DNA of 11,953 bases, from positions 1 through 11,953 of IMG/VR virus record IMGVR_UViG_2563366976_000008; one strand, 5' to 3'. This document shows positions 6,001 through 9,000 of this stretch, piece by piece. Made by a program: the position numbers. Source of the stretch: a virus. Lineage: Duplodnaviria; Heunggongvirae; Uroviricota; Caudoviricetes. Position 1 is the stretch's first letter. Each line of letters opens with the position of its first letter.

Positions 6001-9000
6001 CCCTGCGGTCAGTGCTGCTTCTTCGTTATAAGTAAAAATCACGTTGCTCATGCGGCGTTTTCCTTAATTTGATGAACATTATTGATGCCGTAGTAATCAC
6101 AAACAGTGGCATCGACGAAAGAGAGATCGTTATCAATCTCATTGGAATCAAACATTCCCATTGGGGATTTGACAGTGTCTGCACCGTTGTTTTTCGTGGT
6201 GAAAAAGAACTGGTCATCGCGGGTAAGAGTGCGAAGAACTATAGTAAACATGCCTTCGACAGTGATTTTCTCGTCCAGCATTTTGCCGATAGTTTTCATT
6301 TTCACGCGCCCCATAGGGGTTTCTTCGGTATGTGCAAGAAAATAGACTCTCAGGTCATCAGGTGCATCCTGTGCAGCCTTAATCACCTCCCATGCGTGGC
6401 GGCCTATCTCAGTAAATTTATCAAACGATTTTTCTTCTGAGCGGCGCATAAACTCATTGCTCATCACATACTGGAAGTCATCAACAATAACGATTCTTTT
6501 CCCGTATTCGTGAGCACGCTTAATTACGGCAACTATTACGTCCCATTTGTCAGTGGTAACTACGGTTCCTTTTTTTGCTCTGGCATCCCATGCCAGCCAG
6601 TCTTTTGATTTAAATGGTAGCGGCTTGCCTATTGGTTTTATAAGTATTGCTTCCTCTGGATTGATATTTCTCATGCTGGTTGATTTTCCGGTGCCAGATT
6701 CACCGAGTATTAATGTCGCAGTTCCCATAATTTGCCTCAGAATGGTAATTCGGATGGGGAGGAAAGAAACTCACGCTCATTCATGCGCTCTCTTTGCGCC
6801 TGCCATAAACAAAGTTGTTTCTTTGATTTATCTCCCGCTTTACGCCAGTAACGAGCCTCAGCAATGTGATATTCTCTTTTTAATCGACTTAACTCTGGAG
6901 TTTTCGCCAGTTCTACCGGAATCATTTTGACCTCCATTTTCTGTAGGCTTCTACGGCTTCACGAAACATCTTTTCATCGCCAATAAAAGTGGCGATAGTG
7001 AATTTAGTCTGGATAGCCATAAGTGTTTTATCCATTTTTGGGAACTCCTGGCTGATTAAGTATGTCGATAAGGCGTTTCCATCCATCACGTAATTTACGT
7101 GTGATTCGTTCAAGTAAAGATTCGGAAGGGCAGCCAGCAACAGGCCACCCTGCAATGGCATATTGCATGGTGTGCTCCTTATTTATACATAACGAAAACG
7201 CCTCGAGTGAAGCGTTATTGGTATGCATATAAAAAAGCCCTCACACTGGAGGGCAAAGAAGATTTCCAATAATCAGAACAAGTCGGCTCCTGTTTAGTTA
7301 CGAGCGACATTGCTCCGTGTATTCACTCGTTGGAATGAATACACAGTGCTTATTCGCAGCCTACATAATCATTCCGGTTATTATTACCATTTCAATATCA
7401 CTATCTTTCATAATGATTGGAGTTGAGTTATCAACTTTACTTTTACTCCATTTTCCTGCATCAGTTTTTACCGCTCCACAATAAGAAAGCCAATCATCAT
7501 CACAATGTTCTGGATCACTAATTCTGACAAGAACACGTGATAGTGCTTTTTCGATACTTTCATCACAATTAGCATTTGTGTAATTGCCGTGAGACAATTT
7601 CAAATCGTTAACTTCATCTTCATTGGCATCAAAAATATAGATTTCAGTCGACTCTGGAACATTTTCATAAACCATTAAAACTTTCATTTTTACCCCATAT
7701 TGTTTATGCCAAAAATAAAGGTCGGCTATGCGGCCTGAAATTACTTAATCAATGATGCTGCATATTCGATAAGGTAAAGTTTTGGGGCCAGCCAAATTTT
7801 TAACCAAGTCATATTGGTTACTGCACCAATAATAAAAATCCCCCACAGAGTCAAAACTCCAACCAATGGCACGATAAGAAGATTAATATCACCTTTGCTA
7901 TCCCAAACCATTGTCGGCCTGTATTTGGGATTTCCTTTCTCCCATGAATATCCTTCATCACCGATTTTACCTGTCTCAACTCTTTGGCACTGCTTCTTCA
8001 TAAACCAGAAAACCAGTGGGATTGTTAGAATGGCTATTAATGTTTTAATCAGACTGTCAACCATATTCCATAGCAGCAACTGATGAACAACATCAGGAAT
8101 CTGTGCCTGGCTAAATGAAACAGCCGCGTCTATTCCATTGCTGGCTTTTTGCAGTAGTTCTACGAGAATCTTGTTTGCTTGTTCTTCCATATATCACCTT
8201 AAATAGTGGCTTGCGGTAGTAAAGATTGTGCCTGTCTTTTAACCACATCAGGCTCGGTGGTTCTCGTGTACCCCTACAGCGAGAAATCGGATAAACTCTA
8301 TTCACCCCCTACAGAGAGAATGATGGAGATTCACCGATGAGTAACTGGTGGCAGGAACTATTACGTTTCTTCCTGCGTGGTCTTACGCTACAACAGTTAA
8401 TTCATATGCTTATTATTTTAATTGCCTTGATAATAATCACCCCAGCATCAATTAAAGAGTGGGTAGATATAAGGAACCCAGAAATACTTCCAGATCACTG
8501 GATGTATTACGCGATGCTTTTGTGTATCAGTTATGTTCTGAACAGGGTGATGGAGTTTATATTTCTGGCATCTTCAGACAGATATAAAAAATATCTCAGT
8601 AAGAGAGATGAGGCTAAAGTAATTGTGGAGACTGAGCGCCTGTTCAATTCTCTGAGTATTCAGGAAAAAGAGGTTTTAGCATTTGCTGTTATGGCAAATA
8701 ACAAAATCGTACTTAAGCACGGCGATCCGGTCGCTTTATCTCTTATGAGAAAAGGCCTTCTCCATCGCTCAGGTGTGACTTACAGCGCGTCAGGTAAAGA
8801 GAAATTTGTTATACCTGACGTCTGGTTCCATGAGTGTTATATGCGCTTTGCTGGTAAAGCTGATGAGCTAATTTAGTTCCTCGACGGCGGGGGATCGTCA
8901 TCTCGCCGTCAGTTGTTTTGATTTCCGGTAGCCTGCCGCGTAAAGAGCTACGTTTGGAAGACAAGTTGAACCTTCATATTTTCTGGTCAACGTTGTCAGA

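What the first reader, a model, noticed from the sequence alone, without database searches (positions are those of the whole stretch)
8271..8320. Direct 15-bp repeats in the divergent intergenic region upstream of the plus-strand membrane-protein gene
CCCCTACAGCGAGAA and CCCCTACAGAGAGAA are spaced 35 bp apart, with a twice-repeated ATTCACC nearby. I found no good sigma70 -35 element. This pattern suggests tandem binding sites for a regulator controlling the only rightward gene in the early-left region.
Basis: seen in the sequence. Interest (0 to 1): 0.4.

Follow-up and report, generated by a model that had tools for sequence, protein, structure and literature searches.

The report
Repeats inside sieB promoter/antisense-RNA region
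The two 15-bp repeats are real and conserved, but they lie inside the already-studied control region of the phage superinfection-exclusion gene sieB, where they are matching parts of two small hairpin units in the promoter/leader and in the antisense RNA (sas) on the other strand, so they do not look like docking sites for a DNA-binding regulator.

Summary
CCCCTACAGCGAGAA (8271-8285) and CCCCTACAGAGAGAA (8306-8320) are the only such local repeat in the window (chance about 3%).

The + gene is sieB (PF14163). The intergenic region is nearly identical to P22 and lambda. Transferring the P22 annotation, copy 1 lies in the PsieB spacer (-35 8267-8272, -10 TAAACT 8292-8297) and copy 2 lies at +3..+17 of the sieB mRNA (start A8304). 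The opposite strand (8213-8341) is 92% identical to the P22 antisense RNA sas, which switches translation from SieB to Esc.

Across 63 distinct related cassettes, each copy sits in a hairpin whose stem co-varies. Hairpin 1 folds better as leftward RNA in 25 of 27 variants. Three sequence families (CCCCTACAG, CCCCAACAAC, TTCCACAGTCA) each keep the same motif in both copies.

Best reading: the repeats are two tandem roughly 35-bp promoter/hairpin units that form the body of a sas-like antisense RNA. No protein operator is indicated, because the motif does not track immunity type or host.

This is a new member of a known system. The dual-loop idea and the cassette's use before about 25 different genes are untested extras.

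The parts
8230..8260 (-). Conserved 31-nt module GCCTGTCTTTTAACCACATCAGGCTCGGTGG. It contains hairpin 3 (GCCTG 8230-8234 / CAGGC 8249-8253) and forms the 3' part of the sas-like RNA.
   Evidence: Invariant in 17 of 17 representative cassettes. Found in front of about 25 different rightward genes. No U-tract follows it in most relatives, so it is not a canonical intrinsic terminator.
8261..8285 (-). Hairpin 1: TTCTCG / TGTA-CCCC-TACA / (g) / CGAGAA. As leftward RNA it reads UUCUCG-c-UGUA-GGGG-UACA-CGAGAA. Repeat copy 1 (8271-8285) is its loop plus its 3' half.
   Evidence: At least 11 distinct perfect stems of 5 bp or more at this anchored position, against a null probability of 0.038 each. RNAalifold and pair counts give 88.8% of cells paired, with 4 pairs changed on both sides. 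The minus-strand RNA is more stable in 25 of 27 variants.
8267..8297 (+). PsieB core promoter by homology with P22: -35 TGTACC 8267-8272, 19-bp spacer, -10 TAAACT 8292-8297.
   Evidence: P22 records AF527608 and BK000583 annotate the identical sequence tgtacccctacagcgagaaatcggataaact as the sieB promoter; alignment A1.
8304..8304 (+). Predicted sieB transcription start (A), 7 nt after the -10.
   Evidence: BK000583 'sieB RNA start site' at 29727, mapped through the alignment.
8296..8316 (-). Hairpin 2: CTCT 8296-8299 / loop ATTCACCCCCTAC / AGAG 8313-8316 (an alternative register uses 8315-8318). The 5' arm overlaps the -10, so this hairpin can form only in leftward RNA. Repeat copy 2 (8306-8320) is its loop plus 3' arm.
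   Evidence: Arms co-vary across relatives: ACTCT/AGAGT (P22), AAACT/AGTTT (lambda), CTCTTAC/GTAAGAG, CTCTC/GAGAG, GACTGT/ACAGTC, ATATTG/CAATAT, TCTG/CAGA. Null P(5 bp or more)=0.07 and P(6 bp or more)=0.02. The stem is only 4 bp in this window.
8304..8336 (+). sieB 5' leader (33 nt). It starts with the C-rich repeat copy 2 and carries the Shine-Dalgarno sequence GGAG at 8325-8328.
   Evidence: Sequence. The first 25 nt are predicted to be unstructured (-0.7 kcal/mol).
8213..8341 (-). sas-like antisense RNA. It is complementary to the sieB start codon, Shine-Dalgarno sequence and leader (8304-8341), then runs through hairpins 2, 1 and 3.
   Evidence: 119/129 identical to the 127-nt P22A-sas RNA reported in PMC13397905. 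A three-hairpin fold is shared with P22, lambda and L098.
8337..8876 (+). sieB (179 aa), with a conserved internal in-frame ATG at 8406 (Met24) that corresponds to the P22 Esc start.
   Evidence: Pfam PF14163 SieB, E=3e-20. 47% identical to P22 SieB, with the motif LIHM conserved. P22 esc annotation.
8883..8910 (+). Terminator-like hairpin plus T-run just after the sieB stop codon. It closes the autonomous sieB transcription unit and overlaps the 3' end of the convergent N gene.
   Evidence: Terminator scan; N_peptide PF25694 for 8898-9242(-).

Best explanation
The repeats are the corresponding segments (loop plus 3' stem half) of two tandem units of about 35 bp in the control region of the prophage gene sieB.

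On the + strand the upstream unit supplies the weak -35 and spacer of promoter PsieB. The downstream unit supplies the end of the -10, the transcription start (A8304) and the first 17 nt of the sieB mRNA.

On the - strand both units are transcribed as part of a sas-like antisense RNA (about 8213-8341). This RNA is presumably made from the leftward early (pL) transcript of an induced or superinfecting phage. In it each unit folds into a small hairpin that displays a G-run (GGGG), followed by a conserved 3' hairpin module.

As in P22, pairing of this RNA with the sieB leader and start codon should block SieB translation. Translation from the internal Esc start (8406) would continue, so the phage is not killed by its own exclusion system.

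Shown here: homology, positions relative to the annotated P22 promoter and start site, hairpin covariation, strand preference, and co-variation of the two copies.

Inferred: that this prophage makes the RNA, that it comes from pL, and that the two copies are kept identical because the loop of hairpin 1, like that of hairpin 2, has to match the C-rich 5' end of the mRNA (a second capture site).
For: - Gene identity and context: SieB, N, cI and cro assignments.
- Conservation: the intergenic region is almost invariant against P22 and SPN9CC and 96% identical to lambda. The SieB proteins, by contrast, are only 47% and 20% identical.
- Promoter and start site: P22 annotation of the promoter, RNA start and esc.
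- The antisense RNA in P22: the sas sequence covers both repeats and is detected only in infected cells. sas is described as a cis antisense RNA that switches SieB to Esc.
- Homology here: window 8213-8341(-) is 92% identical to sas.
- Hairpin 1: at least 11 different perfect stems. In the structure count, 87% of cells pair, against 33-49% when partners are slid, with 0/500 shuffles reaching the observed value. RNAalifold adds an inner stem with G.U pairs. The minus strand is more stable in 25/27 variants (sum -228.9 vs -172.6 kcal/mol).
- Hairpin 2: the arms co-vary and the 5' arm overlaps the -10, which excludes the mRNA as the folded strand.
- Co-variation of the copies: the two copies share 9-14 nt in 12/13 representatives of three motif families, while cross-family matches are at the chance level.
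- Pairing energetics: the mRNA 5' end is unstructured. Its duplex with the hairpin-1 sequence is -24.6 kcal/mol, against -9.3 for the hairpin alone, and the GGGG loop is unpaired with P of about 0.99.
Against: - No expression data exist for this prophage.
- Single-sequence folding is not better than shuffles (z -1.05 and -1.79).
- Hairpin 2 has only 4 bp in this window and is absent in some relatives (L072, L192).
- A few single variants (L097, L069, L142) carry wobble pairs that favour the + strand.
- The reported sas lengths disagree: 127 nt by RNA-seq and 105 nt in the review table.
- The origin of the sas 5' end (own promoter or processing) could not be checked, because the primary papers (Ranade & Poteete 1993) are not in the library.
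- Identity of the two copies could reflect separate duplications or local gene conversion rather than selection.
- Lambda keeps only 9-10 nt of copy 2, and HK620-type phages lack copy 2 altogether, so a second copy is not essential.
Confidence: 0.6

Rival explanations
1. Operator model: the two direct repeats are tandem binding sites on double-stranded DNA for a phage or host regulator of PsieB. Given their positions (promoter spacer and +3..+17), that regulator would be a repressor.
For: The repeats are conserved, and both copies change together between families, which a sequence-specific binder would also explain. The 35-bp spacing puts the sites roughly on one DNA face. The promoter has a poor -35.
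Against: - No candidate binder co-varies with the motif. Lambda, P22 and this window have different repressors and N proteins yet share CCCCTACAG.
- E. coli phages carry both the CCCCTACAG and the CCCCAACAAC families, which argues against a single host factor.
- The flanking inverted repeats vary freely while staying complementary and tolerate G.U pairs on one strand, as expected for RNA.
- In single-hairpin relatives only one copy exists.
Confidence: 0.1
2. Relic model: the repeats are the remains of a tandem duplication of a promoter-plus-hairpin unit. The upstream copy is a dead promoter (TGGTTCTCG where single-hairpin relatives have TGGTATnCT). It persists because the whole cassette is exchanged as a block, and identity of the two copies has no function.
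For: - Single-hairpin relatives have one unit with an extended -10-like TGGTATnCT at the place where this window has TGGTTCTCG.
- Unit flanks are shared between copy 1 of one family and copy 2 of another (CTGGTTATTCC).
- HK620-type phages have lost copy 2 and lambda keeps only 9-10 nt of it.
Against: Three diverged families each keep 9-14 identical nt in both copies although the motif differs between families. That needs parallel change or repeated duplication. The hairpin-1 stem is maintained by compensatory changes even though it has no promoter role.
Confidence: 0.2
3. Leftward-transcript signal model: the hairpins and the conserved module act mainly on the pL transcript as a termination, pause or processing site (a tL1-like element, or the signals that cut out sas). 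The repeated G-rich loops would be recognised by an RNA-binding protein or nuclease rather than by the sieB mRNA.
For: The hairpins are favoured on the leftward RNA. The region lies just downstream of N on that transcript, where lambda's first leftward terminator is expected (from memory, not verified here). The module is conserved at sequence level, including its loop. The P22 sas 3' end lies just past it.
Against: No hairpin here is followed by a U-run, and the terminator scan reports nothing in 8191-8336 on the minus strand. The flank after the module is not conserved or U-rich in relatives. No protein is known to bind such loops.
Confidence: 0.1

Closest known systems
Phage P22 sieB control region: promoter PsieB, the sieB/esc nested genes and the sas antisense RNA (Ranade & Poteete 1993, as cited in PMC12197685, PMC7067206 and PMC13397905)
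   Same: Same position (between N and the next leftward early gene). The sequence is identical from the conserved module through copy 1 and the -10. Both have the same predicted start site, both repeats, an internal Esc-type Met, and an antisense region 92% identical to sas.
   Different: The SieB protein is only 47% identical. The part of the antisense RNA that covers the Shine-Dalgarno sequence and start codon differs (8 mismatches and 2 gaps, all within its first 33 aligned positions). The C-run of copy 2 has one extra C. The leftward neighbour is a 149-aa unknown gene instead of ral. There is no experimental data for this prophage.
Phage lambda sieB upstream region (34358-34481)
   Same: 96% identical to window 8191-8314. 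Copy 1, hairpin 1, the -10 TAAACT and the module are identical.
   Different: Copy 2 is reduced to (A)CCCCTACAG. Hairpin 2 uses other arms (AAACT/AGTTT). The leader is only about 11-14 nt with no Shine-Dalgarno sequence. The SieB proteins are 20% identical.
IS10 RNA-OUT / RNA-IN type antisense control (the loop of a stem-loop antisense RNA pairs first with the free 5' end of the target mRNA)
   Same: The geometry is analogous. The promoter -10 lies in the 5' arm, the mRNA starts opposite the antisense loop, and the duplex then extends over the Shine-Dalgarno sequence and AUG. This is a statement about how it may work, drawn from general knowledge.
   Different: No sequence relationship. Here there are two loops with the same sequence. 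The outcome in P22 is a switch between two start codons rather than simple silencing. The pairing pathway is untested.
Morons: autonomous promoter-gene-terminator units expressed from lambdoid prophages
   Same: sieB has its own promoter and its own terminator (8883-8910) inside the leftward operon. The same upstream cassette precedes about 25 unrelated small genes in other prophages.
   Different: The moron concept does not include a built-in antisense RNA cassette or a conserved 31-nt module.
Tandem direct-repeat operators (for example, lambda CII TTGC-N6-TTGC sites)
   Same: Direct repeats overlapping a promoter with a weak -35.
   Different: The spacing (35 bp) and positions (spacer and leader) differ, no cognate protein is known, and the flanking arms show RNA-type covariation.

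Membership tests
P22-type sieB/esc/sas module | A SieB-family gene transcribed rightward inside the leftward early operon, next to the N antiterminator gene | tested here: met
   PF14163 SieB, E=3e-20, for 8337-8873(+). PF25694 N_peptide for 8901-9242(-). cI-like repressor at 10558-11202(-).
P22-type sieB/esc/sas module | PsieB promoter sequence and start-site context as annotated in P22 | tested here: met
   The 31-nt promoter feature of AF527608/BK000583 is identical to window 8267-8297, and the start-site A maps to 8304. Promoter activity itself was not tested.
P22-type sieB/esc/sas module | Sequence on the opposite strand homologous to sas RNA and covering the sieB Shine-Dalgarno sequence and start codon | tested here: met
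   119/129 identical to the 127-nt P22A-sas; it spans 8213-8341 and includes ATG 8337.
P22-type sieB/esc/sas module | Internal in-frame start for the truncated Esc protein | tested here: met
   ATG at 8406 (Met24) aligns with P22 Met25, the annotated esc start, in the conserved motif LIHML.
P22-type sieB/esc/sas module | sas is made by the infecting or induced phage and shifts translation from SieB to Esc | not testable with these tools
   Needs RNA mapping and protein assays. Only P22 data exist.
Protein operator made of tandem direct repeats | A cognate DNA-binding protein whose specificity tracks the repeat sequence | tested here: not met
   The same motif occurs in phages with different immunity and N types (lambda, P22, window). 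Different motifs occur in phages of one host, E. coli. Only repressor and N types were compared, so a binder cannot be excluded.
Protein operator made of tandem direct repeats | Sites placed where binding could control RNA polymerase | tested here: met
   Copy 1 lies in the spacer and copy 2 at +3..+17. This is compatible with repression but is not specific evidence for it.
Intrinsic (rho-independent) terminator | G+C-rich stem immediately followed by a U-run | tested here: not met
   No terminator-like site on either strand within 8191-8336. The sequence after hairpin 3 is ACAAUCUUUAC here and is not U-rich in relatives.
Any curated Rfam RNA family | Match to a covariance model | tested here: not met
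   No hit in 8150-8450 even at E of 10 or less. The only hit in the whole window is Lambda_thermo at 7123-7181. sas has no Rfam model.
Structured antisense RNA (conserved stem-loops) | Stems maintained by compensatory changes, with a preference for one strand | tested here: met
   Hairpin 1. Hairpin 2: (weaker). Hairpin 3 never varies, so it is uninformative.

The most novel reading that the evidence does not exclude
The sieB upstream region may be one instance of a portable, modular antisense cassette of lambdoid prophages. The cassette has a conserved 31-nt 3' module plus one or two hairpins whose G-rich loops are complementary to the first nucleotides of the rightward mRNA. It is placed in front of many unrelated prophage-expressed (probably exclusion or defence) genes. 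In the two-hairpin form, both loops are kept identical because both capture the C-rich 5' end of the mRNA. The motif families (CCCCTACAG, CCCCAACAAC, TTCCACAGTCA) would then act as specificity groups that decide which incoming phages can switch off a resident prophage's exclusion gene in trans.
Probability: 0.3. Interest if true: 0.55.

Novelty: new member of a known kind. Interest (0 to 1): 0.35.

Why it matters
As a finding it mostly re-discovers the P22/lambda sieB control region, so it mainly helps correct annotation: promoter, start site, an sas-like RNA and Esc for this prophage. The comparative data add two things that could be followed up. First, there is covariation support for the hairpins of sas-type RNAs, which have no Rfam model. 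Second, the same cassette sits in front of about 25 different uncharacterised accessory genes. If the cassette really is a general 'self-escape' switch, it would flag those genes as candidate exclusion or defence functions. It would also predict which phages can evade which prophages.

Tried and rejected
- The primary papers (Ranade & Poteete 1993, J Bacteriol and Genes Dev) and two antisense-RNA reviews are not held. I therefore could not check whether the hairpins or repeats were already described, or how the sas 5' end arises.
- Literature and record searches for the position of lambda tL1 gave nothing. The idea that hairpin 3 is tL1 stays unverified.
- Rfam searches at gathering and permissive thresholds found no family here.
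- Single-sequence folding z-scores are unremarkable. Structure support comes only from comparison between sequences.
- The protein-word search for SieB relatives returned only 6 hits, and the viral-contig protein scan returned only near-identical loci. Diversity had to be obtained by DNA-pattern scans on the conserved module.
- Many genome-contig hits were lambda contamination on roughly 1x contigs or chance 17-mer matches, and were discarded.
- No convincing sigma-70 promoter for sas was seen, by eye, on the minus strand inside the sieB 5' coding region.
- A resemblance of the module to boxA (GTCTTTTAACCA vs CTCTTTAACAA) was set aside, because no rightward transcript is known to cover it.
- CsrA-type GGA loops do not fit all the families.
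- Pfam found nothing for ten of the alternative downstream proteins.
- The ATTCACC repeat is rejected as not conserved.
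Full report
**1. Observation**

The window contains CCCCTACAGCGAGAA at 8271-8285 and CCCCTACAGAGAGAA at 8306-8320, 35 bp apart. ATTCACC occurs at 8300-8306 and 8329-8335. A scan of the whole window for 15-mers repeated with at most one mismatch at 15-60 bp distance finds only this pair. First-order Markov random windows give 0.035 such pairs on average, and 3% of them have any. CCCCTACAG occurs exactly twice in the window. The second ATTCACC is not conserved in relatives and is probably chance.

**2. What the locus is**

The + strand ORF 8337-8876 is a SieB superinfection-exclusion protein (PF14163). It is followed by a convergent N antiterminator gene, a DUF2335 gene, a cI-type repressor and a cro-like gene. 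This is the early-left arm of a lambdoid prophage.

The interval 8191-8345 matches 154 phage records. It is almost invariant against P22 and SPN9CC from the leftward gene's start codon to the second repeat, and 96% identical to lambda 34358-34480. The SieB proteins, by contrast, are only 47% (P22) and 20% (lambda) identical. The non-coding cassette is therefore far better conserved than the genes around it.

**3. Mapping known features**

The P22 records annotate a sieB promoter (tgtacccctacagcgagaaatcggataaact), an RNA start site 7 nt after it, sieB itself, and the nested esc gene. Carried over to the window these become:
- -35 TGTACC at 8267-8272
- a 19-bp spacer
- -10 TAAACT at 8292-8297
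- transcription start at A8304
- Shine-Dalgarno sequence GGAG at 8325-8328
- sieB ATG at 8337
- an Esc-type internal ATG at 8406

Copy 1 therefore lies in the promoter spacer, overlapping the -35 by two bases. Copy 2 is +3..+17 of the mRNA.

On the other strand, the P22 antisense RNA sas (127 nt by RNA-seq, present only in infected cells; listed as 105 nt in a review) covers both repeats. Window 8213-8341(-) is 119/129 identical to it. In P22, sas blocks SieB synthesis while Esc synthesis continues, which lets P22 escape its own exclusion system. My recollection of the 1993 abstracts agrees, but the papers themselves could not be read.

**4. Comparative anatomy**

DNA-pattern scans anchored on the conserved module gave 63 distinct cassettes. 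All share the module GCCTGTCTTTTAACCACATCAGGCTCGGTGG, or a close variant.

Immediately after the module there is always an inverted repeat. Its arms differ between cassettes but stay complementary: TTCTCG/CGAGAA here, and elsewhere TTCCTG/CAGGAA, ATCCT/AGGAT, TTCCTT/AAGGAA, TGCTGG/CCAGCA, TACTGG/CCAGTA, TTCTTGG/CCAAGAA, TCCTTA/TAAGGA and others. Shuffled sequences give a stem of 5 bp or more at that position with probability 0.038.

On a MAFFT alignment of 17 representatives, 87% of cells pair, against 33-49% when the 3' partners are slid, and hairpin 1 has four pairs changed on both sides. RNAalifold adds an inner stem (UGUA/UACA in one family, UGUU/AAUA with a G.U pair in another) closing a GGGG loop. 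Folded as RNA, this hairpin is more stable on the minus strand in 25 of 27 variants. The summed energies are -228.9 versus -172.6 kcal/mol, and the difference is largest in the CCCCAACAAC family. The structure therefore belongs to the leftward transcript.

**5. Two architectures**

'Type A' cassettes have one hairpin, preceded by GTGGTATnCT (an extended -10-like TGnTATnCT) and followed directly by a Shine-Dalgarno sequence and ATG.

'Type B' cassettes, including this window, P22 and lambda, have two hairpins with a -10-like hexamer between them (TAAACT, TAAAAT, TAGACT, TATATT or TAATCT).

The second hairpin's 5' arm overlaps that -10, and its arms also co-vary: CTCT/AGAG here, ACTCT/AGAGT in P22, AAACT/AGTTT in lambda, and CTCTTAC/GTAAGAG, GACTGT/ACAGTC, ATATTG/CAATAT elsewhere. 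The null probabilities are P(5 bp or more)=0.07 and P(6 bp or more)=0.02. Because the 5' arm lies upstream of the start site, this hairpin cannot form in the sieB mRNA, only in leftward RNA.

The upstream unit looks like a copy whose -10 has decayed (TGGTTCTCG).

**6. The two copies change together**

There are three families: CCCCTACAG (E. coli and Salmonella phages), CCCCAACAAC (Rahnella, Trabulsiella, Edwardsiella, Izhakiella, and also E. coli and Klebsiella phages), and TTCCACAGTCA (including a Salmonella phage). Each family has the same motif in both copies. The copies share 9-14 identical nt within a genome in 12 of 13 representatives, whereas cross-family matches (mean 4.8) equal the shuffled level, and P(9 or more)=0.002.

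The motif is not tied to the downstream gene, because about 25 unrelated proteins follow the cassette and none of ten tested has a Pfam family. It is not tied to the immunity or N type, because lambda, P22 and this window share it. It is not tied to the host genus either.

**7. Mechanism**

The best-supported reading has two layers.
- The + strand provides PsieB and the sieB leader.
- The - strand provides a sas-like RNA whose body is hairpin 2, hairpin 1 and the conserved 3' hairpin.

The mRNA starts opposite the loop of hairpin 2, and its first 25 nt are predicted to be unstructured. The perfect duplex with the hairpin-2 region is -37.9 kcal/mol. The near-identical copy in hairpin 1 could also pair with the mRNA 5' end (-24.6 kcal/mol, against -9.3 for the hairpin itself), and its GGGG loop is unpaired with probability of about 0.99. 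This resembles loop-to-5'-end antisense systems such as IS10 RNA-OUT/RNA-IN. It also offers a reason for keeping the two copies identical.

That last step is inference. So is the assumption that the RNA is cut or terminated out of the pL transcript, which rests only on my seeing no convincing minus-strand promoter by eye.

**8. Rivals**

- A protein operator remains possible, but no co-varying binder is apparent and the free covariation of the arms argues against it.
- A functionless duplication relic fits the decayed upstream -10 and the loss of copy 2 in HK620-type phages. It does not explain the maintained hairpin-1 stem or the parallel changes in three families.
- A termination or processing signal on the pL transcript fits the strand preference, but there is no U-tract.

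**9. Verdict**

The repeats are real, non-random and conserved. They lie in a control region already characterised in P22, and recognised in lambda by homology, so this is a new member of a known system rather than a new kind of element.

The sequence is regulatory, but the likely partner is RNA.

The extras found here would be new if they hold up, but they are untested. They are hairpin covariation for sas-type RNAs, which are not in Rfam; co-evolving twin loops; and a portable cassette in front of many unknown accessory genes.

Noticed in passing
window 8230-8260; loci L029-L216: A 31-nt module (GCCTGTCTTTTAACCACATCAGGCTCGGTGG) is conserved almost base for base in lambdoid prophages of many Enterobacterales genera, while the genes on both sides vary. 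Its loop sequence is conserved too, and it is not followed by a U-run. Its function is unexplained (sas 3' end or stability element, processing site, promoter upstream region in single-hairpin cassettes, or recombination linker).
   Followed up: partly
loci such as L083, L118, L123, L077, L162 (single-hairpin 'type A' cassettes): In cassettes with one hairpin, the module is followed by an invariant TGGTATnCT, an extended -10-like promoter whose last bases form the hairpin's 5' arm. In this window the same place reads TGGTTCTCG, which suggests a decayed promoter copy.
   Followed up: partly
loci L098, L120, L030, L125, L108, L083, L184 and others, downstream of the cassette: About 25 unrelated small proteins occupy the sieB position behind the same cassette. 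They include a family of 155-200 aa coiled-coil plus zinc-ribbon-like proteins (…LCAQCYES…, …LCPNCF…). None of ten tested has a Pfam family. They are candidate prophage exclusion or defence genes.
   Followed up: partly
window 7123-7181 (-): Strong match to the Rfam family Lambda_thermo (cIII thermoregulator, 88.5 bits, E=5.6e-21). This marks the cIII start region of the prophage.
   Followed up: no
window 8883-8910 (+): A 10-bp G+C-rich hairpin with a T-run lies right after the sieB stop codon. It overlaps the 3' end of the convergent N gene (8898-9242, -) and is probably the sieB terminator.
   Followed up: no
window 7741-8190 (-) and 9671-10367 (-): The divergent neighbour of sieB is a 149-aa protein with no Pfam match, in the place where P22 and lambda have ral. 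Between N and cI, in the rexAB position, lie a DUF2335 membrane protein (177 aa) and a 73-aa ORF.
   Followed up: no
window 8286-8290 and 8334-8338: The inverted repeat ATCGG…CCGAT brackets the -10, hairpin 2 and the leader. In the predicted sas-like fold it closes a long 5' domain (also in P22, not in lambda).
   Followed up: no
Genome-contig loci L038-L076 (for example Shewanella canadensis NODE_20, length 48542, coverage 0.96): Many assemblies of unrelated bacteria contain lambda-identical sequence on low-coverage contigs, one of which is lambda-sized. This is most likely phage-lambda contamination of the sequencing libraries, not real prophages.
   Followed up: no
window 7300-10400 vs E. 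coli complete genomes: 2284 of 5426 complete E. coli genomes match parts of this stretch, but none covers 80% of it, so this particular gene combination is a mosaic not present in that collection. IMG/VR contigs with 100% identical SieB do exist (L006-L010).
   Followed up: no
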